A DNA stretch of 64,000 bases from Trypanosoma brucei (Eukaryota), in assembly GCA_000002445.1 (NCBI GenBank), contig CP000066.1, positions 320,001 through 384,000 of the forward strand. The letters are read 5' to 3'. The position numbers were made by a program, and so were the translations under genes. The number at the start of each line of letters is the position of its first letter. The first letter of the stretch is position 1. Below the pieces are notes generated by a model. The model worked only from the letters and a program-made list of their open reading frames with translations. It did no database searches and was not told the DNA's origin. Shown piece by piece: positions 3,026-64,000 of the stretch.

Positions 3026-3334
3026 AAGTGTCTGTAACGCATACGTGCTTGTAGGTGTATTTGTGTGTGTTGTTATAGGGATGATATGAAATAATAACAG
3101 ATGTACGGGTGTTGCCAATATCCCCCTCCTTCACCTTTTCACGATTTGTATTTGTTTTGTTTCTTCATCCCTTTATTGAGCGTGTTTGTTCCGCTTTTTC
3201 TTTTCAATTTGCAAGGGAGAGGCGGCTCACCTGGACGTGAGCGTAGGCACGTAGGTGCGAGTATATTCCCAGGGGTTTAATAAAAGTGTGTTCCCCCTCC
3301 CCGTTAAGAAGATACACTTCAGTTATTTTTAGTA

Positions 3335-6300
3335 TTGTCACGCATTGTCGCCTCTGGAGAAATGTTGCTTTGCAAGCAACCAGGGGACACTACCATATTT
3401 GCCACTGCCACAGTAGACCATATCAGCCTTTACAATCTTTCTTCTGTTTCGCCTCTTGCACGGGAGTTGTCGGTAACCCCAACTCCAGACAGGCAACACG
3501 TTCGCATTATTGATTCGACCAATGAGGCCGCTGCCGACCTTTCTCCTTACGGGAATCAACCCTGTTCTGTAATTAACACCATTGTACACAATGCGTGTCG
3601 ACGACCATTTGTTCCAATATGGAGAGTCCCATTCTCGCAGGTGCGCGGTAGCGGCATTAGCGGCGGTGAAGATGAAGCGAACAGATGCACACCGCTTTCG
3701 CTTGCACTTAGTTGTGCTGGGGGCGCGCAGAGGCTATTTGTGTCCGAAAGCGGTAGTGGTGCATGGGTGGGCGAAGGGATGTCATTCTCCGCACTGTCTG
3801 TCCCCTCCGAAATTGTTACAACGAGTGCGTATGTTGACAGAGATACCAGAGCAGAATCAATACAATACACTAAAAGCGGTATTCAAGGGAATGATATTGT
3901 CACATCCGGCTGGGCGTATCGCGACCCAACATTACTTGCCATTGGTCGACATAGGGGTGTTGTGCAACTTCTGCGCGTAGAAGGTAGCGGCTCCCATCCC
4001 TCTCTTCACACCACAGTGGTTCAGGAACGTGTTCTTCAGGGAAGTGTAACTTCTCTCGATTGGGTTCCAAACAGTGACATTCTCGTCGTGGCGGCGCGAC
4101 GGCGAGATGAGTATGGTTGCTTTGCGGAGGTGATGGATTTTCGGTCTCGAGAAGTAGCTATTCGCTACCTCGGTGCCCCACCAGGCGTTACTCCCACTTC
4201 TTCACGCGCTTCGAGGCAACAACAACCCCTGCGCTGTGGTGTTGGTATTGCGTCTACGGGTGCATTATGCTTTGCAGAGGCTATTGCCTGTGACATGTCG
4301 CAGAAGTACGTCGCGGCTGCCGGCAGCAACAACCGCCATGACGTACTTCAACTTTGGGATCTGCGGATGAGCTCAAGGCCAGTTAGTGCGCACGTTCACG
4401 CCAGCCTGGGATACACGTCTCTCAGCTGGGTGTCGTGTGCAACTCCTACTGTAGTCAGCACCACCCGAAAAAGGGGGCTATGGATGTATACGTTTACAGA
4501 TTCGCAAAGTCAAGGTGGTGATGATAGTGATGATAGCGGTGAGGAAAAGGAAAGACGACAACGTTTGCTCCCTTCGGAGGACCGGTATCGCTTACATACC
4601 CGGGTGCCAGCAGCATGTGCTGCATCATTGGGGGGAGACCAAGCTGTTACACCGACTACGGGTGTTGAAACGTCACAACCGGGTGTAGCGGCGTCTCCTC
4701 ACAAGGGAAGTGCACACCATAGAGCAGGCAAATGCGACCAAGTGCAGAATGGGCAACATCTCAAGTTGCCGTGTCTTGTTCTGCTCGATGCCGCTTCGGG
4801 TGAGTTGTACCCACAAGTGGCTCTTCCGAGAAAAACAATGGTCACAATGATCAATGACATCCCTGTGTGGAGCGCGGGACCCAATGTATTTCGCTTTCAT
4901 CGTGATATTAATGAGCTGCTCGACGATATGGAGGATGACAGTAATTTGCAATTACGAAAACAGAAGGACCAGCACATACCCGACACTATCGCTAAGGAAC
5001 CTTCTGCCAGTGCCGGTAGCCTTAGCGAGGGGGAATTTGAAGAAGAGAGCGGTGAGGCGGAGCGCACTGGTGGAAACCTTTTAGACCTGCTGAAAGCATC
5101 AGTGTTCATGAACACAGATTACGACGAAACGACCCTCGCCTCTCTGTCCACGACATTACCGGCTGCAATAAAGGAACGGCCAAATATTCCTACTGTTAGG
5201 CGCCCGTTATTGTCGTTGAGGCGTCTCCGCGAGGGATTCGTGCCTTACTCACATCAAGTTTTTTCTGTGCTGTCACACGAAATGGCAGATCGTGAGGCTT
5301 ATGCTCTGTTCCGCTACGGGTGGTACATGCAACGACACATTCACAAGGGGAAAACAATTACCCCGGCATCTTCTGTTGTTCCCAGCTTACTGGAACTGCT
5401 CCGGAAAAAGCCACAGGTGCAAGTAACTAAAGTCATTCTCCGCGCAATGGGGTGGTGCATCGATCGAGATGAGGAGGCACTGATGCTGCAGCCGTTAGAC
5501 TCCCCAACAACTGTTAGGGAGAGCAGCAGGATCGGTGTTTTATCACCAAACATCGTACCGCAGACGACACACCAGGTATCCGGTCGATTTCATGGCCTTC
5601 CCCTGTATTGCCATCAGAGACCGTTGGCATCTGAAAAGGGAAGCACCATGTTTTCGTCTCCCTCAGCATCGTCCGAAAGTACAGAGTACGCGGCCGATGT
5701 GCTCTCTCAGAACTCTCTACCGCCGTTTGAAAGTCAGGTGGCGCCCTCTCCTGAGGTTGAGTTCTGCGACCGCGTTGGCGCCGCCTCACCGGAGGATGCA
5801 GTTGAACGGCGTGTTGCTATTCATGTTTGCATGGGTTATCTGAGTGAGGCGGCACGACTGCTCTCTCATTACAGTGACCTGCGGCCTTCCTACGCGAATG
5901 TCGCCCTTATACTAGAGTCAGCTGCACAGGGTCATTTTCCGGTTGCAAATATCGTTGCGCCTGCGGGCTGTAGTTACTGGATGCATTTGTGCGTTGAGCT
6001 GTTGGGGATGTATGCACATCATTCGTCCATAGGAGGCGCCGATCAAGGGAACGGCGAGCGCGAGCGACCAGGGTCAGGTTGGTCAAGCGCTTCATCACAC
6101 GTGGCAGGGCGCAAGTTCTTTACGTGTTTCACGAGGCGATACCCTCAAATGCCCCTCCCGGACCAAGTAGCCCTGGCCACAGTTCTGTTATTCCCATACG
6201 CATCAGCCGATTCGCAGGAACAGCTAGCCTCCGGCGATAATAAACGCGAGGAATCGTGGGAGGCCCTAGGTGATATACTTCAAGAGATGACGATGATGCA

Positions 6301-7123
6301 GTTTGATTCTTCTCTAGGTTGCAGTTGCTCCCTTTTCCTTTCGGCGGCTGTCGAGCCACTTGATAGCGAATACACTTCTGTACAACGTTACGTTGATGAA
6401 ACGGGTGACGTGCAAACTCCGGTGGTATACTTTGCACTATATGGGTCTACAAAGAGCAGGAGTTGGCGTTTGTGGAACGATGCCTACCGCACTCAGTTGA
6501 ACAATGGTGGCCATTCAATCCTCCGCAGTATCCACGATCTCGCGTGCTCAAAAATGTCGCAGATGCGTGAAAAGGTAAACGAGAATTTCAAGAGCAGTGA
6601 ATATAATAATTCTATGTCGTTCCCACTCGCTGGCCGGGACGGTGTAGTGCCACTCGCATCAAATTTCGTGGGGAGGACATTTAGTGGTTTCGTGGGAGCG
6701 CCGACGGCTTCCGTAATTTCTGGCACTGAAGGCAGGCCGAAGTCAAAGAGACTAACGGGAACGGGAGGTGTGGTGCTGAGATGCAAATGCGGATGTCGCG
6801 TACCCACATTTCCTGCCAATGCCGAGGGGGATGCGGTGGAACCAACATCAACGGCTATTAAGACAGCGTCCATGGAAGGGAGCCAACAGTCACTGTGCAA
6901 AATACCTGACTGCCTAACACCCATGTGCGTAGTATGCAGCGAGCCGGTATTCCGTCAAAAATCTGGTTATACGTTCGAGGAGTCTTTTACGTGGTGCACC
7001 GTCTGTCTACATGGAGGCCACTGGATGCACTTACGAGAGTGGTTTGTGAAGCATCGAACTTGCCCTGCTGAGGATTGTTCCTGTCGTTGCTACTACCCTT
7101 TAAATGAGCGTTGTGGTGTGTGA
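3335..7123 (+). CDS. Large WD-repeat/RING protein of 1262 aa with a C-terminal GATOR2/SEA-type zinc finger (MIOS/WDR24/WDR59/Sea4-like).
   Basis: C-terminus reads CVVCSEPV…WCTVCLHGGHWMHLREWFVKHRTCPAEDCSCRCYY. This matches the C-x2-C…C-x2-C-(G/L)HGGH-x2-H-x3-WF-x2-H-x2-CP-x-GCGC-x-C signature of GATOR2/SEACAT RING subunits. WD-like strand motifs lie upstream (LQLWDLRMSSRPVSAH). A pyrimidine tract precedes the ATG. Confidence 0.55.
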   Translation: MSRIVASGEMLLCKQPGDTTIFATATVDHISLYNLSSVSPLARELSVTPTPDRQHVRIIDSTNEAAADLSPYGNQPCSVINTIVHNACRRPFVPIWRVPFSQVRGSGISGGEDEANRCTPLSLALSCAGGAQRLFVSESGSGAWVGEGMSFSALSVPSEIVTTSAYVDRDTRAESIQYTKSGIQGNDIVTSGWAYRDPTLLAIGRHRGVVQLLRVEGSGSHPSLHTTVVQERVLQGSVTSLDWVPNSDILVVAARRRDEYGCFAEVMDFRSREVAIRYLGAPPGVTPTSSRASRQQQPLRCGVGIASTGALCFAEAIACDMSQKYVAAAGSNNRHDVLQLWDLRMSSRPVSAHVHASLGYTSLSWVSCATPTVVSTTRKRGLWMYTFTDSQSQGGDDSDDSGEEKERRQRLLPSEDRYRLHTRVPAACAASLGGDQAVTPTTGVETSQPGVAASPHKGSAHHRAGKCDQVQNGQHLKLPCLVLLDAASGELYPQVALPRKTMVTMINDIPVWSAGPNVFRFHRDINELLDDMEDDSNLQLRKQKDQHIPDTIAKEPSASAGSLSEGEFEEESGEAERTGGNLLDLLKASVFMNTDYDETTLASLSTTLPAAIKERPNIPTVRRPLLSLRRLREGFVPYSHQVFSVLSHEMADREAYALFRYGWYMQRHIHKGKTITPASSVVPSLLELLRKKPQVQVTKVILRAMGWCIDRDEEALMLQPLDSPTTVRESSRIGVLSPNIVPQTTHQVSGRFHGLPLYCHQRPLASEKGSTMFSSPSASSESTEYAADVLSQNSLPPFESQVAPSPEVEFCDRVGAASPEDAVERRVAIHVCMGYLSEAARLLSHYSDLRPSYANVALILESAAQGHFPVANIVAPAGCSYWMHLCVELLGMYAHHSSIGGADQGNGERERPGSGWSSASSHVAGRKFFTCFTRRYPQMPLPDQVALATVLLFPYASADSQEQLASGDNKREESWEALGDILQEMTMMQFDSSLGCSCSLFLSAAVEPLDSEYTSVQRYVDETGDVQTPVVYFALYGSTKSRSWRLWNDAYRTQLNNGGHSILRSIHDLACSKMSQMREKVNENFKSSEYNNSMSFPLAGRDGVVPLASNFVGRTFSGFVGAPTASVISGTEGRPKSKRLTGTGGVVLRCKCGCRVPTFPANAEGDAVEPTSTAIKTASMEGSQQSLCKIPDCLTPMCVVCSEPVFRQKSGYTFEESFTWCTVCLHGGHWMHLREWFVKHRTCPAEDCSCRCYYPLNERCGV

Positions 7124-7423
7124 TGTCAGGGTAATTTCTCTGTCGACATGTCAATTTTATACAGTGATACAGTTTGGGCGACGGACTCTTCGTCTGTTGG
7201 CCTCCTGTTCTTGTTAGTGTATGTGTGTTTTGAGTATTCCTTTCATTCGAACCCACGCGCGCACACCTGTATATCTATTTGCTATTCATATGCTACTTTG
7301 CCTCTGTGGGGGTGTATAACCGGACTCTGACTGACTCCAAAGCTCAACTTTCCGAACACCGTTACCCTCGCTGTACATGCGTTTCTTGTGTTTGCACGCG
7401 GATAGTAGTGGGGGCCAAAAACA

Positions 7424-10400
7424 GTGGTAGGAGCGATGAAGTACTTTGCATGTCGTTTGGATGACCACAATGGCTTTGGTTTACTTATCGGTCACACACT
7501 TAGCTACTTCACTGCGCGCCGGGCCACGACGAAAGGCTTTAGCACTGCGACGCCGAAAAGCGCCGGCAGCGGTACCGATGGTGAAGACGCCTTCAACTTT
7601 CATGTGCAGTATACAGTGACGCTGCCGCATGTCTTCGGTTTTGCCCCGAAGTGTTTTAGCATGGCCAACTATTCTCTTTATGGAGTGGACATGGCAATCA
7701 TCGGCGGTAGCAATGGCGTGCTAGGTGTAGTGGTAATGCACGATGGCAGCATTGTGTATGCACCGGATCGCAGTCCCGAGGTAATGAATGCGAACAATCA
7801 AAGATCAGCGACTACAACATCCGTTTGGGCTCTATCGTGTGCGGCCAGGAGCTTACCATCTGTGCGAATGCTTGATACAGCCTCCACACTCAAGCAGGTG
7901 GCTGGTGCCACATCATCACCACCTTTTCCCCAACCAATGCCTCTTGCAGACAGAGGTGTTGGTACCGTTACTTGGATTCAAAACGACGCGTTGGTGTTCG
8001 TTGGATTTACGTCGGGTCAAGTTGAGTGGTACCGTGTCACCACCCGCATCCGCCAACCAGAAAGCAAAGAGAAGAGTTCGGAATTGATTAATATCGGTAC
8101 AGTTGGAAGGCCAACACGTTCGGGGTGTGTGACGGGAGCTTTTCCGGCGAATGGAGATATGTTTGCAGGGATGACTAATCCTAGTGGCGCGAATCATCGG
8201 ACCTCAGACAGCTTCCCACACCATCAAAGTACATGGGTGAACAGACAGAGTAGGAGAGAGGGTGCACCGCAGTTAGGTTCAAAAGAGGAGCATAAGGATG
8301 GTTGGTTTGTTGACATCTGCAGCCACTACTCAAGTAATTACTTTGCGGAAACTGGGGGTTTTGTGACAAGCGAATATTTCCCCGCCACAGGCCTTGTGCT
8401 TGCTGCAGCAGAGCGGGCGCTCTACGTGTTTACCAGAAAGCAGCCTGAGACAACGCTTTGCTGTGTGCCACGCACTGGGTGCACTTACATTTCCTGTCAT
8501 CCTTCTCTTCCTCTTGTTGCGTGCCTTGGTTGCGGAAACAAAACACCAAATATCAACGGAGATCCTGGGGAAGGTTCATGTGCTCTACAAGTGTTAGAGT
8601 GGACGGATGAGGGAGAGATGTGTCCAGTAACAGAAATTTGTGTTTTGACGCCATCTAGCGACTCAAGTGCACGCTGTTGTTCCCACCTGAATTGTTCGTG
8701 GAATCAGGGCGCCGAGCTGCAACTTGCGGTGTGCAACATGAAGGAGTGTGCCATTCAGTTGTTAAATCTCTCGCGTGCGGAGGAGTGGGTACACTGTGAG
8801 ACAGTACCAACTGCACGCCGTCGCTGGTATGAAATAATCTTCAACCGCGAACTGCACCACCCCTTGCGTTCACTCGTAAACGCAGAGTTCATATTACCGC
8901 GCGTGCTTGAGCAAGACCGAAAGTTGGCGAAACCACCAGCTTTCGCCAGTGACCCTGCCGCTGGTTGCCATGAACGAAAGGGTTCGCATCCGAGGGATTC
9001 TTTGGAAACCAAACGGGGTTCAACAGCAACCCTTAGCAAGGAGGCACCCCCCGCGTTGCTTGCACCGAATCCAGTGCAGGATGGTGAGGGGTGTCTTGTT
9101 AAGAATACAGTCGCTGGAGATGAACGAAGCACCCAGTCTCGAACCAGTGAGATCGCCCCTTGCCGTGCAGTGCCGTCAGTAAGCACTGTCCCTCACGTAA
9201 TTGTTGTGAACACTGTTGGTGAAATTGCGGTAACTCCCCTTCACACCGAGACAAAAGTCGCTTTCTTCGGATTGAACAGTATTGTTGCGGGTATCGGGGC
9301 GACTGTTTGCGCAATCAAGACACCAGCCAAGGAAACTAGCATTAGCGGCTGTTGTGCGGGAGCGCCGACTGCGACGATTACTTTAAGTGTGCCGTTTCCT
9401 TCAAGGAGTGTTCCGGTAACCGCACGTGAAGAGCAGGCCCGTGCCAGCATGGCGGACACGATTGACATCGAAGAGCACATGAGGAAGCGCCTTGCGGCTG
9501 GATTTGGAGTTCCTGCGGCAGCTAATGTGGAGGCGTTGACCAAGTTGAACGGTACTTCCGCCTACGATGTGGACGAACGTGTTCTGTTTTCGTATATCGC
9601 GATTATGGAGAAAGTGGGACTGGTGCGGTGTGATGGTCCGGTACCTAGTATCGTGGAGTTGCTCACTCTTCGTGGCGCACCGAACACTACGCAACTCACC
9701 GACATGGGTTTATTGCCGCATAATACAGCTGTTGTGTGTCGGTCATCCACTTCACAGAATGACTCCAGACGTTTGCTACTTCTTCACTTACTCAACTGGA
9801 TTCCCTCACGAAGTGAATCTCCACAGCGGAACCAGCAAACTCCTGCCACACGAGCGGACGTGGAGCGCGCTGTTGTGGTGGATGTGCTGCATCGGCAGCG
9901 TCTGCGTGCTGCTACATTTCTGCGCCAGCAACTTCACATAGACTCGAACTACAGCATCGTGGCTGGACTAATTGAAAACTATGACAAAGTGGCTAGTGCC
10001 ATGAATGATTGTGCGGGTGAGGTTCGAGAACCCTTTCTTCAGCGTTTGAGTCCTTGGCTACGAGTTGTCTTCACCTTCGAAGCTGACAAGATGGCTGTTT
10101 ACAAGAATGAGGCGCTGCCGTTCTGGGATCGAGTTGCCATTGCACTCATTCTGGAGCACGACACAAAACTTCTTGTTGAATTGCTTCGTAACACTTTTGC
10201 GCCTTTGTGTAATATGGTTCAGGAACTATTGTTGTTTGGAGGTATCTCTGCAAAAACATGTCAACTTATGCAAACAATCGTTGACTGCACCGGAGACTTC
10301 CAATTAGCGGCGTGTCTCTTCGCTCGCATTGGAGTCCACGCGACTGCTACTAGGGGAACGGTCCGAGAAGGTGAATCTGCTTTCAACAGGAATGGTGTGC

Positions 10401-10879
10401 ACGATGATTCCAGCTGGTTCAAGGAGAGCAGTACTGGTCGCCGGGACGAAGTCAACACTGTGGCCAACTATTGGGCACTTTGGTCGGGAGCATATCGTTC
10501 GTTTCTTGACAATGAACGGGAATTTGTTAAGCGAGTTGTGTTTGACCAACAGTGTCAAAACTGTAGCAAGTTATTATATTCTGGCGAGCATGGGACACGC
10601 ACAAAAATAGAAGTGTTGGAGCGAAGTAACAGCACTGGACATGCAGCTGGGGGCCCCGTGACAACATTACAGTTGCCGGTTGCCAATCAGCGTCGTTGTT
10701 ATGTATGTTCTTCCTCTGTACGGCTGGGACCGCTGATGGCAAGGAGTAGTTACGCCCACTGTGCAGTCTGTGGACATGGTGGCCACATCCATCACCTTCA
10801 GGCGTGGTTCCTCGCTCACCAGAAGTGTGCAGCTGCTGGGTGTGGCTGCCACTGTGCGGTGGACGGTCATGTTTCATAG
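7424..10879 (+). CDS. Second WD-repeat/RING protein of 1151 aa with the same C-terminal GATOR2/SEA-type zinc finger. Paralogue of the upstream gene.
   Basis: C-terminus reads CYVCSSSV…HCAVCGHGGHIHHLQAWFLAHQKCAAAGCGCHCAV. This is the near-canonical CGHGGH…WF…CxxGCGCHC motif of WDR24/WDR59/MIOS. Its position immediately downstream of a gene with the same ending indicates a tandem paralogue pair. Confidence 0.55.
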   Translation: MVGAMKYFACRLDDHNGFGLLIGHTLSYFTARRATTKGFSTATPKSAGSGTDGEDAFNFHVQYTVTLPHVFGFAPKCFSMANYSLYGVDMAIIGGSNGVLGVVVMHDGSIVYAPDRSPEVMNANNQRSATTTSVWALSCAARSLPSVRMLDTASTLKQVAGATSSPPFPQPMPLADRGVGTVTWIQNDALVFVGFTSGQVEWYRVTTRIRQPESKEKSSELINIGTVGRPTRSGCVTGAFPANGDMFAGMTNPSGANHRTSDSFPHHQSTWVNRQSRREGAPQLGSKEEHKDGWFVDICSHYSSNYFAETGGFVTSEYFPATGLVLAAAERALYVFTRKQPETTLCCVPRTGCTYISCHPSLPLVACLGCGNKTPNINGDPGEGSCALQVLEWTDEGEMCPVTEICVLTPSSDSSARCCSHLNCSWNQGAELQLAVCNMKECAIQLLNLSRAEEWVHCETVPTARRRWYEIIFNRELHHPLRSLVNAEFILPRVLEQDRKLAKPPAFASDPAAGCHERKGSHPRDSLETKRGSTATLSKEAPPALLAPNPVQDGEGCLVKNTVAGDERSTQSRTSEIAPCRAVPSVSTVPHVIVVNTVGEIAVTPLHTETKVAFFGLNSIVAGIGATVCAIKTPAKETSISGCCAGAPTATITLSVPFPSRSVPVTAREEQARASMADTIDIEEHMRKRLAAGFGVPAAANVEALTKLNGTSAYDVDERVLFSYIAIMEKVGLVRCDGPVPSIVELLTLRGAPNTTQLTDMGLLPHNTAVVCRSSTSQNDSRRLLLLHLLNWIPSRSESPQRNQQTPATRADVERAVVVDVLHRQRLRAATFLRQQLHIDSNYSIVAGLIENYDKVASAMNDCAGEVREPFLQRLSPWLRVVFTFEADKMAVYKNEALPFWDRVAIALILEHDTKLLVELLRNTFAPLCNMVQELLLFGGISAKTCQLMQTIVDCTGDFQLAACLFARIGVHATATRGTVREGESAFNRNGVHDDSSWFKESSTGRRDEVNTVANYWALWSGAYRSFLDNEREFVKRVVFDQQCQNCSKLLYSGEHGTRTKIEVLERSNSTGHAAGGPVTTLQLPVANQRRCYVCSSSVRLGPLMARSSYAHCAVCGHGGHIHHLQAWFLAHQKCAAAGCGCHCAVDGHVS

Positions 10880-11260: not shown

Positions 11261-14200
11261 TTGGCCCGCCGCGAGGCGCCACGCATGCGAGGAACTGTTT
11301 TGATCTTTGGCAGAAAATTTAGTTGGAATGCTGTGGTCGACGAGTACGGTCACCGACTTCCTCAATGTGCAGGATTGAGTTCCACGCGTAAGAGGCTCTT
11401 GCTAAAAGATTGGAGGTATTTCACATCAACTGGGAGTGAAGAATCACTGACAACATTCTTTAGAAGTGGCCATAAATGTACGAATTCTTTAGAAGATGGA
11501 GATGATGCGCACGCTCACGTAAAAGGTAATGCTGACGTCGTGTACAACGACGGTCAGCAGGGTCGAAAGATCCATCGGGCCCTCCGAGGTGTTGCAGAGT
11601 TTATTGCAGCAACCGGAACCTTTGACGATGTGTGTGCTCCGGGTGAGCGTGGCTACTCAGATGTTTCATTAGCGGTTGAGGGTTTGAAGCGTGCCCGGCT
11701 TGCTGTAGAGTACACGGGAACTGTTCTTTCGCTTTCAAACGATCGGCGGGATGGAATGCTGGCACAGGCGCTTTCTCGAAATCGCCGCAGTGACGAGGAA
11801 GTGGTCAACCAGCAACACTTACGATCTCATTGTGGCGAGGTGCTCAGCCCCTTGGAGGTTGTGGCAATAGCACAGTGGTGTGCGTGGCATGTGCGAACCT
11901 CGTTGAAGGGTGCCAAACATCACCAAGGAACCCCGACGAAGTCGCAAGGGGATGCGGAAACTGCTCGTTGTATAGTCTCTGTTTTGACGCGCTTCCTTTC
12001 CATTCTTGTTGAGGAGGGGCTCCGCCGTTGGGCCGTTGATAGCGTTGCGTGTGAACTCGAACTTAGCGACTTGGTTTGCATCGTGACAGAGGAGGCCCTT
12101 CTTGTACTCCGTGATAATAAAAAAGCGTGCACGTCGGTGAAGTTTGCAACACCTTTGCCTACATGTTCTGTTGGGTGCAGTGCCACAAGTGAACAAACCG
12201 CACTCATGGCCGAGCATTTGAAGCCTGGGATGCGGACTTGGGAAGACCTCTGCTTTGGCGTGAAGGCGCAAGAGGCATTGCTGTGCAGTCAGCGAGAGCG
12301 CTGGCAGCGCGCCCTGCGCCTGTTGCTAGATGTGCAGCGGTGGAATGTCCTCGCAACTACAAAGAACTGTACCACTTCAACGGAAGAAGTGCTGACAAAT
12401 GAATGCGAGGGGAAGTGTCAGTTGCTAGCAAGTAAAGCATTGAACATTCTCTCGATGATCCCACATGGGGTGGTCCAAACACTGCAGTACATCTTAGCCC
12501 AGCATGGGCAGTGGCGTTTGTGCATGATGCTGTGGAAAAGGGGTATTCGTCTTCCTTCCGGCGATGCTCCGACTTGTAATGAAACCGAGGAAGAGCGGCC
12601 ACCGCACTCATTACTTCTTCACCCTGCTGGCCTCAACACCGTTATCACCGCACTGGCGCTTGTCAATGGAAGGCCTTCCAAACATTCATTCACCGCGGCA
12701 ACGTCATCCTTGTTGTGCGCAACAGCAACCGCGGGCGGAACGGAGGGTGTAGATGCGAAGTTGCTGCGGCTGCTCTTGCACCTTGGTGTCATTCCACATC
12801 GCCACTTTACAGTTACCGAATTTGCCACCCTACTCAAGGATGCATTTGGTCTTCATCTCCAAAGCAGTCATGTTGACAGCATTCTATCACCTGCAGCTGT
12901 GTGGCGGTGTTCTGAAGGTCTGCCGTCTCACATGCGTGAAGTATTGTGTTTAATGTGCTTCCGTGTTGTCGCGAGAAGTGGGCTGGCCCACACGTTAATG
13001 CTGGAAGACTTGTACGTTATCATATGCCTTTCCTACCGCACTGTGCTGTCACAAATGTGCCGTCCCATGGCAGAAAGTTCCACTCCGTCAACTCAAAGGG
13101 GGAGAGAGAATATAAGTAACTGCGCTGTGCCCAATATTCAAGGTCGTTGCGAACCGTCCCGAAACGGATTATTGACAGTCGGGTTAGCTGCGGCAACGCG
13201 CAGGACGGCCGTGTTCGCAGAAGAGGACATTCGTACAATAACCGAAGCATTTCTCTCATGTAGTAGTAGGTTATTGGTCCCCTCAGAAAGGGCAAAATCG
13301 TTTCAAAGGGAGGAAGAGGTGTATGCTGGTGTGAATTATACGGATCTGCATCTCTATCGTACGCTCGTAAATGTCAGGATTGGCAGGAATGGGAGCACTG
13401 CAATGCTCTTTACAGTTTCCTCCATGTTGACGAGACTTCTCACTGTGATGCCGCACGTTTTTACACTAGGCACCGTGTGGAGAGGCGCGCTTTGTGCACT
13501 GTCGACTAACTACCAACTGGATGCTTGTGACCATCATTTGGCAGCAGCAGCATCTGTATTCGCGGAAGTGATAGTGGGAACGGCTAGGACGTCCAATAAG
13601 GATGCCCTCGTTGACACCCTCGTGTATTTGGCTCCACTTCTTTCGCCATTCGCGATAGGCCAAATTGTGAAAGGTCCTGTTGGACGTCGGCTCAGTTGGA
13701 CTCATTGCCTTGCTCTGTTACCTTATGCGCCGTGCGCTTCTGGTGCGCAAAGATTGATGTTACGGCGCATCGTAAAAGATTGTGACGTAGAAGGGATGTC
13801 GTTTGTTTACTCCTTACTGCGTATGTCCACGCCTCCGTTGCAGTTACTGCCACAAGCGTCACCGGCTGTCTCAACGGACGTATGTACATTATTGTTACTG
13901 ACTGAGCGGAGTTGGATGCGGGCCCTGCAGGCGTATGGCCGATTTGATCTTCGGGTGCAACGTGCCTGCGCCCCGCACATTGTACGCCTCATCGTTACCG
14001 CTGGAGCGTGGTTGCCACACACTCACAACACCGGCGGGGACGCCAACTGTAGCCATTGCCTCAATGGGTTCGACTCGCTGCTCCATACTGCTCTTCAGGC
14101 AACTGAGGGGAGCCGTGTGGCGGAAGAGGTTCTGCAACTTAGTCTTAAACGTGGATTGTGGGCAGGTGGTCTTGCTTTTCATCAGCGTTTGCAACATGAA

Positions 14201-15562
14201 CATTCAGGTATACTTTTGGGGAATGGTCGAATTAAAACGTGCGCTGCAATGCTGTTTAAAGGACTACTCTCCCATACCGCTCTCGCGCACACAATAGCGG
14301 TTGCCCTCAAACATGCTCGTGCCGCGAGATGGGCGGAGGCTTGTATGGTTCTTCTTGAGGACGACGGTAGTCATGATGGTGCTGAGGAAAGTGGAAGTGT
14401 AACACATTTTGGTGTCACCTCTCTCCACCCAGCTCACTGGTCATCGTTGTTTCGTGACAAGGTGCCCCCACAACTGTCCCATTTAGCCCACACCGTGCGC
14501 TACAGTATGTTGTGTTGCCCTGGTTTATGGCAGCGGGCATTGAAATGGTTGCCACCTCAGGCGCTTCCATTTCCGGTCCATCACCAACTATTGCTTGCTC
14601 GCGTTTCCGGTTTGCCAATTGGTGTGGCAGCCGCGTGTGACGCGGTAACGCCGAAGGTGGAAACGACAACGCCACTTGTTGGCCCACCCCTATCACCCAT
14701 GTCGCTTGTGCAGGTAGCGTTGCAGGAGAAGTTGCGCTGCAGCAAGGCATCGGCGACGGTGGCATCTCAGGCGGAAGTTGAGCGCACACTCCGCGTTTTG
14801 CGTCAACGCGGACAGTGGGAACAAGCAGTCTTGGTTTACGAGCATTCGCTTGCTTGCCGTTGTTTTCCGCATAGTGCAAGTGCCACCGTTGTTGGTGCTT
14901 GCCTGCCTTCGTGGCAGGCGTCCCTTAGTTGCTTTGCGCACATGTCTCAGCGTATGCGTCCCGATGTGGCAACCGCTTCATTAGCTTTGCAAGCTTGCAG
15001 GCGTGGTAGAAAATGGAAGATTGCTCTACGTGTCCTTCAGCAATGCGTGCTTACATCTGCGTCCCGCTCGGCAGGTGAGGTTGTAAGAACTGCACCACAG
15101 TTGATAAATTACGCAATACAGGCGGTTTTGGGTGCCGGCGTTTGGGACGCCGCATTAAATGTGGTTCGCCAATATGGTCAGACAATGAGTCCCTTGCTAG
15201 CAAATACCATTCTTCTGACGTATGTGCGTGCGGAACGATACGATGAAGCTGTGAATTTTTTTTATGGCTGCGTTCGCCGTGGAGTGCGACTGCACGACCA
15301 GTCGCTTGATCTTGTGGTAGCAGCAAGCCAAGCAGTATCGGCAGAATACCATGATTTAGCGCGGTTTGTTGGGGTAATGGCGTCAACTTTGGAGGACTTC
15401 TGTCATGTTCATGGCGTGTTGCTGCAACACGTCCTACTTGTTTGTCGCAGCATTTCTGTTCCCCCCCACGCGTTGGTCCTCTCTTTTAGTTGTGATCAAA
15501 CCGGCGTATCCGCGAGTATGGTATCTGATGATGTCATTAATGCGACTGATTCTATTTGGTGA
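11261..15562 (+). CDS. Large hypothetical protein of 1433 aa with C-terminal PPR/TPR-like helical repeats. Possibly an organellar RNA-binding protein.
   Basis: C-terminal third has ~35-aa degenerate helical repeats (…ASLALQACRRGRKWKIALRVLQQC…, …LLANTILLTYVRAERYDEAVNFFYGCVRRGVRLHDQSLDLVV…) with a pentatricopeptide-like pattern. N-terminus is Arg-rich (MARREAPRMRGTVLIFGRKF). Confidence 0.4.
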   Translation: MARREAPRMRGTVLIFGRKFSWNAVVDEYGHRLPQCAGLSSTRKRLLLKDWRYFTSTGSEESLTTFFRSGHKCTNSLEDGDDAHAHVKGNADVVYNDGQQGRKIHRALRGVAEFIAATGTFDDVCAPGERGYSDVSLAVEGLKRARLAVEYTGTVLSLSNDRRDGMLAQALSRNRRSDEEVVNQQHLRSHCGEVLSPLEVVAIAQWCAWHVRTSLKGAKHHQGTPTKSQGDAETARCIVSVLTRFLSILVEEGLRRWAVDSVACELELSDLVCIVTEEALLVLRDNKKACTSVKFATPLPTCSVGCSATSEQTALMAEHLKPGMRTWEDLCFGVKAQEALLCSQRERWQRALRLLLDVQRWNVLATTKNCTTSTEEVLTNECEGKCQLLASKALNILSMIPHGVVQTLQYILAQHGQWRLCMMLWKRGIRLPSGDAPTCNETEEERPPHSLLLHPAGLNTVITALALVNGRPSKHSFTAATSSLLCATATAGGTEGVDAKLLRLLLHLGVIPHRHFTVTEFATLLKDAFGLHLQSSHVDSILSPAAVWRCSEGLPSHMREVLCLMCFRVVARSGLAHTLMLEDLYVIICLSYRTVLSQMCRPMAESSTPSTQRGRENISNCAVPNIQGRCEPSRNGLLTVGLAAATRRTAVFAEEDIRTITEAFLSCSSRLLVPSERAKSFQREEEVYAGVNYTDLHLYRTLVNVRIGRNGSTAMLFTVSSMLTRLLTVMPHVFTLGTVWRGALCALSTNYQLDACDHHLAAAASVFAEVIVGTARTSNKDALVDTLVYLAPLLSPFAIGQIVKGPVGRRLSWTHCLALLPYAPCASGAQRLMLRRIVKDCDVEGMSFVYSLLRMSTPPLQLLPQASPAVSTDVCTLLLLTERSWMRALQAYGRFDLRVQRACAPHIVRLIVTAGAWLPHTHNTGGDANCSHCLNGFDSLLHTALQATEGSRVAEEVLQLSLKRGLWAGGLAFHQRLQHEHSGILLGNGRIKTCAAMLFKGLLSHTALAHTIAVALKHARAARWAEACMVLLEDDGSHDGAEESGSVTHFGVTSLHPAHWSSLFRDKVPPQLSHLAHTVRYSMLCCPGLWQRALKWLPPQALPFPVHHQLLLARVSGLPIGVAAACDAVTPKVETTTPLVGPPLSPMSLVQVALQEKLRCSKASATVASQAEVERTLRVLRQRGQWEQAVLVYEHSLACRCFPHSASATVVGACLPSWQASLSCFAHMSQRMRPDVATASLALQACRRGRKWKIALRVLQQCVLTSASRSAGEVVRTAPQLINYAIQAVLGAGVWDAALNVVRQYGQTMSPLLANTILLTYVRAERYDEAVNFFYGCVRRGVRLHDQSLDLVVAASQAVSAEYHDLARFVGVMASTLEDFCHVHGVLLQHVLLVCRSISVPPHALVLSFSCDQTGVSASMVSDDVINATDSIW

Positions 15563-18220: not shown

Positions 18221-20581
18221 ATGCAACGACGTAAGCGCTCCCGCACCCATTCAGTGGGTGATGAAGTATCGAAGAACTCGGGGTCAAAATACGTGCCGCA
18301 GCCGGAGAAGATCGCTTCCGCCGCTTCAGGGGATACCTTGGAGCGGGAGGATTCAATAAAGTTGAGTAATACAGTTCTGCGTTCTTTGGCAATTGCCCCT
18401 GATGTTTCTGGTATTCGATGCGTTGCTGTGCATCCGTCAGAGCGAGAGATTGTTCTGGCTCGTGAAAATGGCTCTCTGATCTTGTACGCCATCGAACGAT
18501 TCCAAAACGTCACTCACTTCCAAATGTTGCGTTCCACTGGTGGTCGCAAGAGTCGTACCATTACGCGGTTACGTTACCTAACTCGCGGCACGGGCAATAG
18601 TAAAGGGATTTCCACTCGTACCGCTCCTCTACTACTGGCTTCTTACCTATCCGGCCAGTTCGTTGTTTACTGCGGTGACACACTTGCTCCTCTTTGTGTT
18701 CATCAGCGGACTGGTGGAGCTATTTGGGATTTCTGTATCACAGACCACACCGTCTATGCCGCAAAGGCTGACGGGTCGTGGCACCAGTTACACGTGGAGT
18801 ACAGCAGCAATGTTGCTGGTGCGGCTGGGCCTCGCGCTCCGACCGTTCCGGCGCTGACGCTCAAGCGGATCATACCAAAGGTGCCAGGCGCGGATCGTGC
18901 GATCAGTGTCTGCTGCTCACGGCAGTGGGGAATTGTCGCTGGAACAGATGACGCCGGAAATGTTGTGGCATGGCGTCTTCCCCGACCCGAAAGTACGGAC
19001 GACCGGGACGAAGAGACGATCAATCAGGACAACAGAGGAGGTGAAGGGAACACGGGAACGGCTGGGGATAGGCCGCAGAGTCTAACAGAGCATGAGGCCC
19101 TTTGGACGAGTCGCTTGCCTGAAGGAATGGCGCTTTGTTGTACCATCAGCACCAGTAGTAAAAACGCAGCTCCGGTTGTAGCGGTTGGCACTTCGGTTGG
19201 CGATGTGGTGATATTTGAAGCAACCCGTGGTCAAGCGGTGAAAACATTCACACACCACAAAGGCCCCATTAGCTCGTTGGTGAGCTGTCAGGAATACGTC
19301 AGTGGCAATCAGTGCGGGGTGATTTATGCGTCTGGTTGGCACGAGTCTCTCCGTTCGTACCGATGTAGCGTTGAGGGTGAGTGGCGCCCCGCTGAGGTGA
19401 AACGCCGCACACATCACCATGAAACCAGCGAACTGGCGCTCCTTCACCGCCATCAGATCATACTCTCTGCCTCACGGGATGCAACCGTTATGTATTCCCC
19501 AACTCAGTGTTTGTTCTCTGCACCGGCCATGTACCTTCACACCACGTGTCAGAAACTTGCTTTTGCGAAGGAGAGGAATGTCTTGCTGCAGACACGCAGT
19601 GGCCGCATCGAAGGGTTCTGTACCGATGCCGCATTACGTCGTTGGTCCCCGCTATTTGGTTACGAAGTGAAGGGTAAATTTCACTTGCAGGGACTGTGGT
19701 GCGACGATTCGCTCGGCCACATCGTTTTCTCCACAGACGAGCGTGTCTCTTTATTGTGCTGCCGCTGGCGCAATGGACTGGAGGGGAGTCTCGCGCTTAA
19801 GCGTATTGAAGAGGTGAGGAGTCTGCCTGCCAAATACGGCATTATCGACTGCTGCTTTGTCAACACCAAAACAAACAAAAGTTGCTATCTGCTTTTCGAC
19901 GACGCGATTGTTCAGATTTCCCTCACGAAAGCGTACCCAGTGGTGACCACGCAGCTGGTACAGAGGGATGGAGACCCCGATGAAATTGACATATGTCCAA
20001 CTCGTTTCATGTGGTTAGAAAATCGGGCAGATGTTGGTGAAGAGGAGGGGACTAATCATACCAAACTTATGGTGTACGGTCGCCGCGGGTGGCTTTCGTG
20101 TAGCACTGCGGTGGATGGCACCATTGACACCAGCACTTTCACGGTACACCGCGAGGTGATGCAAATGGTGGAGTCGGTACCCCATTTGTCACAATCGCAA
20201 GGAAGGGTGGAGCACACTATTGTTGCACTTGCAAATGGTGAGCGCTATGTTGCAGGTATTGGAACTTCTCAACTGCTTCAACTTCCGCGCTCACTTCCAC
20301 ACGACACGCGGTTTGTTGCTCTGTTGCCACCGAGACGCCGGCGAAACGACTCGGGCAACGAAGTTAGTGAAGGGTTGGGCAGTGGGCCTCGCTTCCTCGC
20401 CACCTTTTCACGTGGGTTATTGTGGGTTACGAGGAACTCGTGGTGCATGTTGAGCCGGTGCTCCGCAGAGGGTGCGTTTGTTTTGCGTGGAAACAAGAAA
20501 GTGCTAATTGTGGTGCGCAACCTGGAGGGAACGCTGGAAGTGTTGCCACCCTGTTGGAGGCTGCGACGCTTCGGTAACTGA
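18221..20581 (+). CDS. WD40-repeat protein of 786 aa, UTP4/cirhin-like (small-subunit processome).
   Basis: N-terminal segment VSGIRCVAVHPSEREIVLARENGSLILYAI matches the conserved start of UTP4/cirhin (PSGIRCVAY…RLAVSRTDGTVEIY). WD-type strands recur throughout (VAVGTSVGDVVIFEATRGQAVKTFTHHKGPISSLV). Confidence 0.5.
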   Translation: MQRRKRSRTHSVGDEVSKNSGSKYVPQPEKIASAASGDTLEREDSIKLSNTVLRSLAIAPDVSGIRCVAVHPSEREIVLARENGSLILYAIERFQNVTHFQMLRSTGGRKSRTITRLRYLTRGTGNSKGISTRTAPLLLASYLSGQFVVYCGDTLAPLCVHQRTGGAIWDFCITDHTVYAAKADGSWHQLHVEYSSNVAGAAGPRAPTVPALTLKRIIPKVPGADRAISVCCSRQWGIVAGTDDAGNVVAWRLPRPESTDDRDEETINQDNRGGEGNTGTAGDRPQSLTEHEALWTSRLPEGMALCCTISTSSKNAAPVVAVGTSVGDVVIFEATRGQAVKTFTHHKGPISSLVSCQEYVSGNQCGVIYASGWHESLRSYRCSVEGEWRPAEVKRRTHHHETSELALLHRHQIILSASRDATVMYSPTQCLFSAPAMYLHTTCQKLAFAKERNVLLQTRSGRIEGFCTDAALRRWSPLFGYEVKGKFHLQGLWCDDSLGHIVFSTDERVSLLCCRWRNGLEGSLALKRIEEVRSLPAKYGIIDCCFVNTKTNKSCYLLFDDAIVQISLTKAYPVVTTQLVQRDGDPDEIDICPTRFMWLENRADVGEEEGTNHTKLMVYGRRGWLSCSTAVDGTIDTSTFTVHREVMQMVESVPHLSQSQGRVEHTIVALANGERYVAGIGTSQLLQLPRSLPHDTRFVALLPPRRRRNDSGNEVSEGLGSGPRFLATFSRGLLWVTRNSWCMLSRCSAEGAFVLRGNKKVLIVVRNLEGTLEVLPPCWRLRRFGN

Positions 20582-24458: not shown

Positions 24459-26042
<1,584 letters not shown>

Positions 26043-52818: not shown

Positions 52819-53349
52819 TTGCCGCACATAATATGCCGGAAAAAATCCATGTTGAGTTACCACCGGATGGTCTTCTTTGCATATTTTCTCTCTTTAATTT
52901 TTGAGTCTTCTCCTTCTCCTCCTCCAATCACAAGCCTTCGTCTTTTTGAAAGTGCATCTCAGTGTGTAGGCAAAATGAGTTATATAATTGGCCATGTAAT
53001 GAAAAAGACGGTTTTTGTGCTAGTGTTTGCGATTGTTGCGGCATCCAAAAGTGATGAAGATGATAATGATGATGATTTTCGAGTACCCACATGTGAGCAA
53101 TTACTCCCACGGTGGCGGGACGATTTGATGTGCTGTGCTGAGAAGGTACGGGATAAAAACACTTGGTGTTGTGTCAACAACGTGTCAAAAAGCATGTGGA
53201 CTGCTTTAGAGGAATGTGCCAAACAATCCCCGCGTGATTTTACCACATACCCGTGTAGTTGTCTGTCGCAACAAATGATAGAAGCAAATGGTTGGACTGA
53301 AGAAAAGGAAAGAAGCATTAAGAATGCGGAGGAACGGGAATCGCAATAA
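52819..53349 (+). CDS. Hypothetical small cysteine-rich, probably secreted protein.
   Basis: Internal Met followed by a signal-peptide-like MKKTVFVLVFAIVAASKS, an acidic DEDDNDDD run and 8 Cys (CEQL…CCAEK…WCCVNN…CAKQ…CSC). ORF boundaries uncertain. True start may be at ~52975. Confidence 0.3.
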   Translation: MPHIICRKKSMLSYHRMVFFAYFLSLIFESSPSPPPITSLRLFESASQCVGKMSYIIGHVMKKTVFVLVFAIVAASKSDEDDNDDDFRVPTCEQLLPRWRDDLMCCAEKVRDKNTWCCVNNVSKSMWTALEECAKQSPRDFTTYPCSCLSQQMIEANGWTEEKERSIKNAEERESQ

Positions 53350-63920: not shown

Positions 63921-64000
63921 GACCGGCATGATTGCTCGCCAGGTGGTGTAAGCAGTTGTGTGGCCGAAGCTGATCTTTACACATTTTTTTTGCGCGCGGC

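What the first reader, a model, noticed from the sequence alone, without database searches (positions are those of the whole stretch)
3335..10879. Tandem pair of large paralogues ending in the GATOR2/SEA-type RING zinc finger
Two adjacent + strand ORFs of 1262 and 1151 aa both end in C-x2-C…C-x2-C-(L/G)HGGH-x2-H-x3-WF-x2-H-x2-C-x4-C-x-C-x-C (…CTVCLHGGHWMHLREWFVKHRTCPAEDCSCRC… and …CAVCGHGGHIHHLQAWFLAHQKCAAAGCGCHC…). By established knowledge this signature is essentially diagnostic of the WD40–RING subunits of the SEACAT/GATOR2 nutrient-sensing complex (MIOS, WDR24, WDR59; yeast Sea2/3/4). At least one also has WD-like strands. A head-to-tail pair of such subunits in a kinetoplastid would point to a conserved SEA/GATOR module, or a lineage-specific derivative, that has little or no functional description in trypanosomatids. 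Both proteins are much longer than their opisthokont counterparts and carry low-complexity insertions.
Basis: partly seen in the sequence, partly recalled or inferred. Interest (0 to 1): 0.6.

Follow-up and report, generated by a model that had tools for sequence, protein, structure and literature searches.

The report
Two MIOS-like GATOR2 subunit genes
Two neighbouring Trypanosoma brucei genes both encode divergent relatives of MIOS/Sea4, a scaffold protein of the GATOR2/SEACAT amino-acid-sensing complex.

Summary
The window is T. brucei TREU927 chromosome 3. The two + strand genes are XP_843725.1 (ATG 3362..7123, 1253 aa) and XP_843726.1 (ATG 7436..10879, 1147 aa). Both end in the quoted C-x2-C…C-x2-C-x-HGGH…WF…C-x4-C-x-C-x-C finger.

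The GATOR2/SEA reading is supported and can be sharpened: both proteins are MIOS/Sea4-type, not WDR24- or WDR59-type.
- Family profiles against PDB sequences: ORF1 scores MIOS 1e-8 and WDR59 0.5; ORF2 scores MIOS 4e-18 and WDR59 1e-4.
- hhalign against 44 eukaryotic MIOS proteins gives 100% probability for both (E 1e-47 and 4e-44).
- Foldseek with low-confidence AF2 models ranks MIOS chains first for both.
- The ORF1 N-terminus matches the MIOS WD40 propeller. The ORF2 N-terminus is predicted all-β but has no sequence signal.

The two genes are ancient paralogues. They share no DNA similarity, and each is closer to generic MIOS than to the other. Both families occur across Trypanosomatidae, usually adjacent.

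UniRef already labels both proteins as carrying the MIOS zinc-ribbon domain. Faktorová et al. 2023 catalogued Sea2/3/4 in T. brucei. No functional study of either gene in T. brucei turned up. Interest is low to moderate.

The parts
3362..7123 (+). ORF1 coding sequence (1253 aa, XP_843725.1), a MIOS/Sea4-family protein
   Evidence: Exact match to the public protein. ORF listing. Family profile hits MIOS at 1e-8 and Sea4 at 4e-6 against PDB sequences. hhalign against a 44-sequence MIOS profile: 100% probability, E 1.1e-47.
3896..4492 (+). ORF1 residues ~179-377: the best-modelled part of the N-terminal WD40-like β-propeller. β-strands are predicted from residue 12 to 503.
5219..6601 (+). ORF1 residues ~620-1080: α-solenoid, interrupted by a disordered insert at about 712-799
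   Evidence: AF2 helices with pLDDT 70-84. MIOS motifs are present: RLRxGF, ERRVA, LPxxDxxAxA, QRYVDETGDVQT, WRLWNDAYR. The first part of the solenoid aligns with MIOS only weakly (E 0.0015).
6782..7090 (+). ORF1 residues 1141-1243: Cys4 zinc ribbon (C1141, C1143, C1179, C1184) followed by the RING-like finger (C1189…C1243)
   Evidence: All Cys/His positions are invariant in 7 Trypanosoma orthologues. Aligned with the MIOS segments RCxFC…CPxC…C-x2-C…WC-x2-C-x-HGGH. Pfam PF17034 E 3.2e-5, 24.6 bits against a cut-off of 27. Coordinates.
7124..7435 (.). 312-nt intergenic spacer between the two genes
   Evidence: Sequence read. There is no repeat or coding similarity across the pair.
7436..10879 (+). 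ORF2 coding sequence (1147 aa, XP_843726.1), a MIOS/Sea4-family protein
   Evidence: Exact match. Family profile hits MIOS at 4e-18, Sea4 at 3e-13, WDR59 at 1e-4 and WDR24 at 1.5e-4. hhalign against the MIOS profile: 100% probability, E 3.7e-44 over 491 columns. Foldseek places a SEAC chain and the MIOS chain 7uhy_A first, with further GATOR2-entry chains to rank 16, E 1.5e-14 to 5e-7.
7472..9319 (+). ORF2 residues ~13-628: all-β N-terminal region, probably a highly divergent propeller. The last strands (587-628) align with the MIOS segment between propeller and solenoid.
   Evidence: AF2 secondary structure, with pLDDT reaching 60-80 only in patches. Foldseek also hits WD40 propellers at E ~1e-4. 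hhalign finds no sequence similarity to MIOS WD40 (E 0.05). Residues 587 onward lie inside the significant MIOS alignment.
9422..10330 (+). ORF2 residues ~663-965: α-solenoid
   Evidence: AF2 helices with pLDDT 70-87. phmmer aligns ORF2 766-964 with human MIOS 472-677. hhalign.
10697..10855 (+). ORF2 residues 1088-1140: RING-like finger only. The upstream Cys4 ribbon of MIOS is not conserved in this family.
   Evidence: Regular-expression match. Invariant Cys/His in orthologues. Pfam PF17034 E 1.3e-4 and PF17120 E 1.3e-3, both below cut-off. Orthologues reach 2.5e-10.

Best explanation
Both genes encode divergent members of the MIOS/Sea4 family, the scaffold subunit of the SEACAT/GATOR2 complex. 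Each protein has an N-terminal β-propeller, an α-solenoid and a C-terminal zinc-binding domain. ORF1 has a Cys4 ribbon plus a RING-like finger. ORF2 has the RING-like finger only.

By analogy with the solved human and yeast complexes, the solenoids and zinc-finger domains would act as structural junctions. These junctions tie the RING-bearing subunits and a Sec13-type propeller (TbSec13.2 in trypanosomes) into a cage. That cage controls the GATOR1/Iml1 - RagA/RagC - TORC1 branch of amino-acid sensing.

Shown here: homology, domain order, conservation of the metal ligands, and conservation of both genes across trypanosomatids. Inferred: that the two proteins sit in one complex, which partners they bind, and any effect on TOR signalling. 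The two genes are ancient paralogues, not a recent tandem copy.
For: Sequence:
- Pfam PF17034 is the best hit for both proteins and for all 14 orthologues scanned.
- PDB sequence searches return only GATOR2/SEAC chains, with MIOS and Sea4 far ahead of WDR24 and WDR59.
- hhalign against a 44-protein MIOS alignment gives 100% probability for both.
- An ORF1-family profile searched against 1.84 billion representatives found 677 proteins at E<=0.001. A 51-protein sample of hits of 700-1250 aa taken from the listed top 150 (three or four of them kinetoplastid-type or intermediate) all carried PF17034; 43 carried MIOS_a-sol and 39 carried MIOS_WD40.

Structure:
- AF2 gives a β-then-α architecture for both proteins.
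- Foldseek places MIOS or other GATOR2/SEAC-entry chains first for both models, with alignments of about 950-1200 columns.

Conservation:
- Zinc ligands are invariant.
- Both families occur in Trypanosoma, Leishmania, Porcisia, Leptomonas and Phytomonas. The ORF2 type also occurs in Bodo saltans.
- The genes have adjacent locus tags in T. grayi, T. conorhini and T. rangeli. They are adjacent on an independent trypanosomatid-like contig.

Context from papers:
- Sec13b of the diplonemid P. papillatum pulls down two SEA RING proteins, annotated Sea3 and Sea4 (PMC10264103).
- L. donovani has RagA, RagC, Sestrin and DEPDC5 homologues, and its RagA and RagC interact (PMC7901767).
Against: - Both T. 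brucei proteins score below Pfam's gathering threshold (24.6 and 22.7 bits against 27).
- The AF2 models are poor (mean pLDDT 44 and 49, pTM 0.39). Foldseek TM-scores are 0.2-0.3, so the structural support is local rather than global.
- The ORF2 N-terminal 600 residues have no sequence similarity to any propeller.
- No experiment on either T. brucei protein was found in the library.
- Complex membership is extrapolated from a diplonemid pull-down.
- NPRL2/3 and Ragulator were not found in Leishmania by BLASTP, so the downstream pathway may differ.
Confidence: 0.8

Rival explanations
1. ORF1 is not a MIOS paralogue. It is the very divergent orthologue of Sea3/WDR59, and ORF2 is the only Sea4/MIOS. 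On this view the adjacency of the two genes is incidental, and trypanosomatids keep the canonical three RING subunits (Sea2, Sea3, Sea4).
For: Faktorová et al. report one Sea2, one Sea3 and one Sea4 per euglenozoan. They note that kinetoplastid Sea2/Sea3 fall outside the canonical clades, and that Bodo 'Sea3' retrieves Sea4 by BLAST. That pattern is what an ORF1-type protein would give. ORF1 and ORF2 are not sisters in my NJ tree (0/100 bootstraps), and each is closer to generic MIOS than to the other. This fits a split as old as the Sea3/Sea4 split.
Against: - The ORF1-family profile scores MIOS at 1e-8 and Sea4 at 4e-6, but WDR59 at only 0.5. Yeast Sea3 is not reported at E<=1.
- ORF1 keeps the MIOS-specific Cys4 ribbon and the YVDxTGDVQT motif.
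- No RWD domain is found in any of 7 orthologues or in the model.
- All sampled hits of the ORF1 profile are MIOS-type.
Confidence: 0.15
2. The pair is a recent lineage-specific tandem duplication giving two redundant copies, one of which is decaying.
For: The genes are head-to-tail on the same strand, 312 nt apart. ORF2 has lost the upstream zinc ribbon and any WD sequence signature.
Against: - There is no nucleotide similarity between the genes.
- Protein similarity is limited to the C-terminal half.
- Both copies are retained, with invariant zinc ligands, in Trypanosoma, Leishmania, Leptomonas, Phytomonas and Porcisia. The ORF2 type reaches Bodo.
- Both reading frames are intact.
Confidence: 0.03
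3. The proteins are free-standing RING E3 ligases or tethering-complex subunits (HOPS/CORVET Vps11/18/41-like) that merely share a β-propeller/α-solenoid/RING layout with GATOR2.
For: The protocoatomer layout is shared by Vps11/18/41 and others. Foldseek also lists IFT-A and nucleoporin chains at E ~1e-4.
Against: No Vps or other RING family appears in the Pfam or PDB sequence searches at E<=1. The matches to MIOS extend through the solenoid with family-specific motifs.
Confidence: 0.02

Closest known systems
MIOS (human GATOR2) / Sea4 (yeast SEACAT)
   Same: Both proteins share the MIOS order of β-propeller, α-solenoid and C-terminal zinc-binding domain. They share the HGGH…WF…C-x4-C-x-C-x-C finger and the solenoid motifs ER(A/R)xA, DRxAxA, VDxTGDxQ and WxxxYRxxL. 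MIOS and Sea4 are the best hits by sequence, by profile and by fold.
   Different: There are two distinct genes rather than the single MIOS or Sea4 chain found in each of the solved human and yeast complexes. Both proteins are 30-40% longer than human MIOS because of disordered inserts. ORF2 lacks the conserved upstream Cys4 ribbon and has no recognisable WD repeats. Seh1 is reported absent from excavates, so the β-propeller partner is probably a Sec13 paralogue (PMC8421043; PMC10264103).
WDR59 / Sea3
   Same: It has the same protocoatomer layout and a related C-terminal RING. ORF2-family profile against WDR59: 1e-4.
   Different: No RWD domain was detected. The ORF1 profile scores WDR59 at only E 0.5. 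Pfam's WDR24/59 RING model PF17120 scores lower than the MIOS model for both proteins.
WDR24 / Sea2
   Same: It has a β-propeller, α-solenoid and RING. Foldseek aligns the WDR24 propeller to the ORF1 model (7uhy_C, 296 columns, E 6e-5).
   Different: Only the propeller or the RING matches. Sequence E-values are 0.04-0.9 for ORF1 and about 1e-4 to 1e-5 for ORF2. A separate Sea2/WDR24 candidate is reported elsewhere in kinetoplastid genomes (PMC10264103; PMC7901767).
Paradiplonema papillatum Sea3 (DIPPA_06252) and Sea4 (DIPPA_21857), partners of Sec13b
   Same: These are euglenozoan SEA RING proteins. The same paper lists T. brucei orthologues, and their 'Sea3' is hard to tell from Sea4 by BLAST.
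   Different: I could not map either T. brucei gene to these entries. The supplementary table is held only as unreliable machine-read text. Physical interaction has been shown only in the diplonemid.

Membership tests
MIOS/Sea4 (GATOR2/SEACAT scaffold subunit) | C-terminal MIOS zinc-ribbon/RING domain (Pfam PF17034) with conserved Cys/His ligands | tested here: met
   PF17034 is the best Pfam hit for both proteins: E 3.2e-5 and 1.3e-4, but 24.6 and 22.7 bits against a cut-off of 27. All 14 orthologues hit it, best E 3.6e-6 and 2.5e-10. hhalign gives 100% probability through this domain. The ligands are invariant. ORF2 retains only the RING half.
MIOS/Sea4 (GATOR2/SEACAT scaffold subunit) | α-solenoid homologous to the MIOS solenoid | tested here: met
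   ORF2: phmmer aligns residues 766-964 with MIOS 472-677, and hhalign covers 587-1145. ORF1: hhalign covers 813-1246, while the first solenoid part matches only weakly (E 0.0015). The Pfam MIOS_a-sol model itself did not report either protein.
MIOS/Sea4 (GATOR2/SEACAT scaffold subunit) | N-terminal WD40 β-propeller - ORF1 | tested here: met
MIOS/Sea4 (GATOR2/SEACAT scaffold subunit) | N-terminal WD40 β-propeller - ORF2 | tested here: inconclusive
   AF2 predicts all-β for residues 13-628, mostly at pLDDT below 70. Foldseek aligns the whole model to MIOS/Sea4 chains and also to WD40 proteins at E ~1e-4. There is no sequence similarity to MIOS WD40 (E 0.05).
MIOS/Sea4 (GATOR2/SEACAT scaffold subunit) | Physical membership of a complex with Sec13/Seh1 and the other RING subunits, and regulation of GATOR1-Rag-TORC1 | not testable with these tools
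   Only indirect evidence exists: the diplonemid Sec13b pull-down (PMC10264103) and the Leishmania RagA/RagC interaction with its homologue list (PMC7901767).
WDR59/Sea3 | RWD domain between propeller and solenoid, and a WDR24/59-type RING (PF17120) as the best finger match | tested here: not met
   No RWD hit in either protein or in any orthologue at E<=0.1. PF17120 is weaker than PF17034. Family profiles against WDR59: E 0.5 for ORF1 and 1e-4 for ORF2, compared with MIOS at 1e-8 and 4e-18. The region where an RWD would sit is modelled as disordered, but at low confidence.
WDR24/Sea2 | Best reciprocal similarity to WDR24/Sea2 across propeller and RING | tested here: not met
   WDR24 E-values are 0.04-0.9 for ORF1 and about 1e-5 to 1e-4 for ORF2, always behind MIOS and Sea4. 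Foldseek aligns only the WDR24 propeller to ORF1.
HOPS/CORVET RING subunits (Vps11/18/41) | Sequence or profile match to the Vps-type RING or solenoid | tested here: not met
   No such family appears in the Pfam or PDB searches at E<=1 or in the Foldseek top 50.

The most novel reading that the evidence does not exclude
Trypanosomatids may build their GATOR2/SEACAT cage from two ancient, usually adjacent MIOS-type paralogues instead of one. There are two possible forms. In the first, an ORF1-ORF2 heterodimer replaces the MIOS-MIOS solenoid homodimer seen in the human complex. In the second, the MIOS-like ORF1 has taken over the position that WDR59/Sea3 holds in opisthokonts, with no RWD domain. 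Either way the complex would have a different subunit logic from the solved human and yeast structures. ORF2 would be a stripped-down subunit, with no upstream zinc ribbon and a propeller unrecognisable by sequence.
Probability: 0.35. Interest if true: 0.5.

Novelty: already known. Interest (0 to 1): 0.3.

Why it matters
GATOR2/SEACAT is the hub through which amino-acid availability reaches TORC1. In trypanosomatids the upstream part of this pathway is barely explored, yet in Leishmania donovani RagA is essential and a RagC variant is linked to reduced virulence (PMC7901767).

Knowing that two distinct MIOS-type scaffold genes exist gives concrete targets for tagging and knock-down in T. brucei. 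They are conserved across Trypanosomatidae and adjacent in Trypanosoma. It also gives a test case for how a protocoatomer-derived cage changes its subunit composition in a lineage reported to lack Seh1. For genome annotation, the practical result is that both 'hypothetical protein, conserved' entries can be named as MIOS/Sea4-family GATOR2 subunits.

Tried and rejected
1. Word-indexed homologue searches reached only Trypanosoma plus two unnamed distant sequences. A combined C-terminal profile returned just 4 hits. The AF2 alignments therefore stayed shallow and the models are poor.
It succeeded with ORF1 residues 170 to the end.
3. A neighbour-joining tree of 400 C-terminal columns from 75 MIOS-type sequences was unresolved. 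Bootstrap support was 21% for the ORF1 core, 53% for the ORF2 core and 0% for ORF1+ORF2. No WDR24/59 outgroup was available, so the age of the duplication could not be set.
5. The afdb50 fold library was unavailable.
6. Supplementary Table S7 of the Faktorová preprint is held only as corrupted machine-read text, with the same accession repeated for Sea2, Sea3 and Sea4. The published T. brucei accessions could not be matched to these genes.
7. Guessed Tb927.3 gene identifiers found no relevant paper. I therefore give no TriTrypDB identifiers.
8. hhalign of the segment between propeller and solenoid did not show a significant 'donated blade' in ORF1. Binding to Sec13 remains inference.
9. A recent tandem duplication was rejected.
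10. HOPS/CORVET-type RING identity was rejected.
Full report
**Where the window comes from and what is there**

ORF listing confirms two adjacent + strand reading frames at 3335..7123 and 7424..10879. Those boundaries use bacterial TTG/GTG starts. The products from the first ATG are 3362..7123 (1253 aa) and 7436..10879 (1147 aa). They are identical to AAZ10166.1/XP_843725.1 and AAZ10167.1/XP_843726.1 of Trypanosoma brucei brucei TREU927, on a 1.65-Mb chromosome. NCBI calls both 'hypothetical protein, conserved'. UniRef calls both 'WD repeat protein mio zinc-ribbon like domain-containing protein'.

The quoted finger is present once in each protein: ORF1 residues 1189-1243 and ORF2 residues 1088-1140. 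Its HGGH-x2-H-x3-WF core occurs nowhere else in the six-frame translation of the window. All other sizeable ORFs in the window are on the + strand and unrelated in function. This fits one trypanosome polycistronic unit.

**Which family the finger belongs to**

Pfam's best hit for both proteins is PF17034, the MIOS zinc ribbon (E 3.2e-5 and 1.3e-4). The WDR24/59 RING model PF17120 scores weaker. Both T. brucei proteins fall just under the curated cut-offs. Every orthologue scanned hits PF17034, 7 of 7 in each family, with best E-values of 3.6e-6 and 2.5e-10.

Against all PDB chain sequences, the only hits better than E = 0.01 are GATOR2/SEAC subunits. For the single proteins, MIOS scores 1.7e-8 (ORF1) and 6.9e-11 (ORF2), and Sea4 scores 2.9e-5 and 2.3e-8. 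WDR24 and WDR59 lie orders of magnitude behind.

With family profiles the gap widens:

| Family profile | MIOS | Sea4 | WDR59 | WDR24 |
|---|---|---|---|---|
| ORF1 | 1.1e-8 | 4e-6 | 0.5 | 0.9 |
| ORF2 | 4e-18 | 3e-13 | 1e-4 | 1.5e-4 |

No HOPS/CORVET or other RING family appears.

**The homology extends well beyond the finger**

phmmer aligns ORF2 residues 766-964 with the human MIOS solenoid, residues 472-677. An alignment of the C-terminal halves of both families is collinear. Shared motifs are RLxxGF, ERxVA, S(P/x)W, LPxxDRxAxA, VDxTGDxQ, WxLWxxAYRxxL and the finger. The same motifs form the consensus of pan-eukaryotic MIOS proteins.

Profile-profile comparison against a 44-protein MIOS alignment gives 100% probability for both:
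- ORF1 family: E 1.1e-47, residues 813-1246.
- ORF2 family: E 3.7e-44, residues 587-1145.

ORF1 also keeps the Cys4 ribbon that precedes the RING in MIOS. Its sequence LRCKCG … C-x4-C aligns to RCxFC … CPxC. The ORF2 family has lost the conserved ribbon.

An ORF1-family profile was searched against 1.84 billion representative proteins. It found 677 proteins at E<=0.001. I sampled 51 hits of 700-1250 aa from the listed top 150; three or four of them are kinetoplastid-type or intermediate sequences. All 51 carry PF17034, 43 carry MIOS_a-sol and 39 carry MIOS_WD40. RWD is not among the 25 commonest of the 31 families listed for these proteins.

**Is there a propeller?**

AF2 models are of low overall confidence: mean pLDDT 49 for ORF2 and 44 for ORF1 residues 1-1130, with pTM 0.39 for both. 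The alignments held only 7-10 sequences. Both models give a β-rich N-terminal half followed by a helical repeat region, and the helical region is the best-modelled part (pLDDT 70-87).

Foldseek against the PDB:
- ORF2: 9h5k_B (a SEAC-EGOC entry chain) is first at 1.5e-14 and the MIOS chain 7uhy_A second at 3e-13. Further chains of GATOR2 entries fill ranks 3-16. The tool gives entry titles only; from the chain counts these are probably MIOS copies. Alignments reach about 1200 columns.
- ORF1: 7uhy_B, 9lvk_A and 9lvj_L (chains of GATOR2 entries, probably MIOS copies on the same grounds) are first, E 1.9e-7 to 5e-6, about 950-1000 columns. Generic WD40 propellers follow.
- TM-scores are only 0.2-0.3, so this is local agreement, not a global superposition.

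For ORF2 there is no sequence signal at all (E 0.05 against MIOS WD40 and 0.14 against the ORF1 N-terminus). Its propeller rests on a weak model.

**How the two genes relate to each other**

- They share no nucleotide similarity. The only 'repeat' is a 22-nt chance match.
- At protein level BLASTP sees only the finger (42% over 55 aa) and a short WxLWxxAYR stretch.
- Profile-profile comparison shows homology over the C-terminal 320 columns (E 1.7e-29, score 256).
- Each family scores higher against generic MIOS (410 and 380) than against the other.
- A neighbour-joining tree was unresolved and never joined the two families (0 of 100 bootstraps).

The pair is therefore an ancient duplication, not a recent tandem copy. 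I could not date it.

Both families are retained widely:
- ORF1-type: T. congolense, T. vivax, T. cruzi, T. rangeli, T. conorhini and T. grayi; Leishmania enriettii, Leptomonas seymouri and Phytomonas.
- ORF2-type: T. grayi, T. conorhini, T. cruzi, T. vivax, T. congolense and T. rangeli; Porcisia and Leptomonas; Bodo saltans.

Adjacency is conserved in several places. Consecutive locus tags occur in T. grayi (DQ04_03321000/03321010), T. conorhini (Tco025E_03323/03322) and T. rangeli (TraAM80_00731/00730). On an unnamed trypanosomatid-like ENA contig, an ORF1-type gene ends 4.4 kb upstream of the ORF2-type gene on the same strand. In the draft Leptomonas seymouri assembly the two genes lie on different contigs, so adjacency may not be universal.

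**What is already known**

Faktorová et al. (Open Biol 2023, PMC10264103) surveyed SEA/GATOR components across Euglenozoa, including T. brucei.
- Sec13b of the diplonemid P. papillatum pulls down two SEA RING proteins, which they assign to Sea3 and Sea4, plus Sec16.
- Kinetoplastid Sea2 and Sea3 candidates fall outside the canonical clades.
- Bodo 'Sea3' retrieves Sea4 by BLAST.
- They propose that TbSec13.2 is the SEA-associated paralogue.

Their accession table is held only as corrupted machine-read text. I could not confirm that ORF1 and ORF2 are their TbSea3 and TbSea4, though that is the simplest reading.

Lypaczewski et al. (PMC7901767) list L. donovani BLASTP hits for MIOS (chromosome 25), WDR24 (chromosome 20), WDR59 (chromosome 30), Sestrin, DEPDC5, RagA and RagC. 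They report NPRL2/3 and Ragulator as absent. They also show that RagA and RagC interact and that RagA is essential. Sestrin homologues with GATOR2-binding motifs are reported for T. brucei (PMC11429811). Seh1 is described as absent from excavates (PMC8421043). I found no paper with experiments on either T. brucei gene.

**Most likely function and mechanism**

I commit to the following reading. Both proteins are MIOS/Sea4-family scaffold subunits of the trypanosome SEACAT/GATOR2 complex.

From established knowledge of the human and yeast structures, MIOS-type subunits dimerise through their solenoids. Their zinc-finger C-terminal domains form heteromeric junctions with the other RING subunits. 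A strand segment after the propeller completes the open propeller of Seh1 or Sec13.

Shown here: the domain order, the family-specific motifs and the invariant metal ligands needed for that role.

Inferred, not shown: that ORF1 and ORF2 sit in one particle with TbSec13.2 and a Sea2-like subunit, and that the particle regulates Iml1/DEPDC5, RagA/C and TOR.

The main open point is whether ORF1 is an additional MIOS paralogue or the protein occupying the Sea3/WDR59 position. The sequence evidence favours MIOS ancestry: the MIOS-type ribbon, no RWD domain, and WDR59 at E 0.5. Without a WDR59/Sea3 search of the T. brucei proteome and a rooted tree, this remains unsettled.

**Verdict**

It is not new. 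Public databases already attach the MIOS zinc-ribbon label to both proteins, and the SEA/GATOR inventory of T. brucei has been published. What this analysis adds:
- Both neighbouring genes are MIOS-type.
- They are ancient paralogues, each closer to generic MIOS than to the other.
- The pair is conserved across Trypanosomatidae.
- ORF2 is a reduced form.

This is a modest, testable refinement rather than a surprise.

Noticed in passing
window 52000-64000 (ORFs 54532-55629, 59405-60307, 61470-63920, all +): GC content falls to 0.38-0.46 here. The genes change character: a 365-aa ORF has a VSG_B domain (E 6e-31), followed by two leucine-rich-repeat proteins (LRR_4 E 1e-32). This looks like a chromosome-internal cluster of VSG-related and LRR genes at the end of a housekeeping polycistron.
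   Followed up: no
window 33759-44648 (+): A 3629-aa ORF whose only Pfam matches are Kelch/β-propeller repeats near its C-terminus, residues ~3290-3540. The remaining ~3200 residues are unassigned.
   Followed up: no
window 11261-15562 (+): The 1433-aa ORF immediately downstream of the pair has only a sub-threshold TPR_7 hit (E 7e-4). It looks helical-repeat-like and its function is unknown. I did not test for any link to the GATOR2-like genes.
   Followed up: no
window 21467-23335 (+): A 622-aa ORF with a clear C-5 cytosine DNA methyltransferase domain (PF00145, E 5.6e-45). It lies between a WD-repeat protein (18221-20581) and ATP synthase β (24483-26042).
   Followed up: no
L001 1-15597 (ENA ERZ12593162 NODE_74, unnamed trypanosomatid-like contig): The ORF1-type and ORF2-type genes are adjacent here too, but each is about 1.5-1.8 times longer than in T. 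brucei because of long low-complexity inserts. The proteins are P0027 (1848 aa) and an upstream gene product of more than 2200 aa. A 324-aa gene is called in the 4.4-kb spacer.
   Followed up: partly
proteins P0039, P0040, P0043, P0047 (Logan assemblies, no taxon names): These proteins score 2-3 times higher on the ORF1-family profile than on the ORF2-family profile, yet far below trypanosomatid orthologues. They may be ORF1-type genes from bodonids or other euglenozoans, which would push the duplication deeper. Their source organisms could not be identified.
   Followed up: partly
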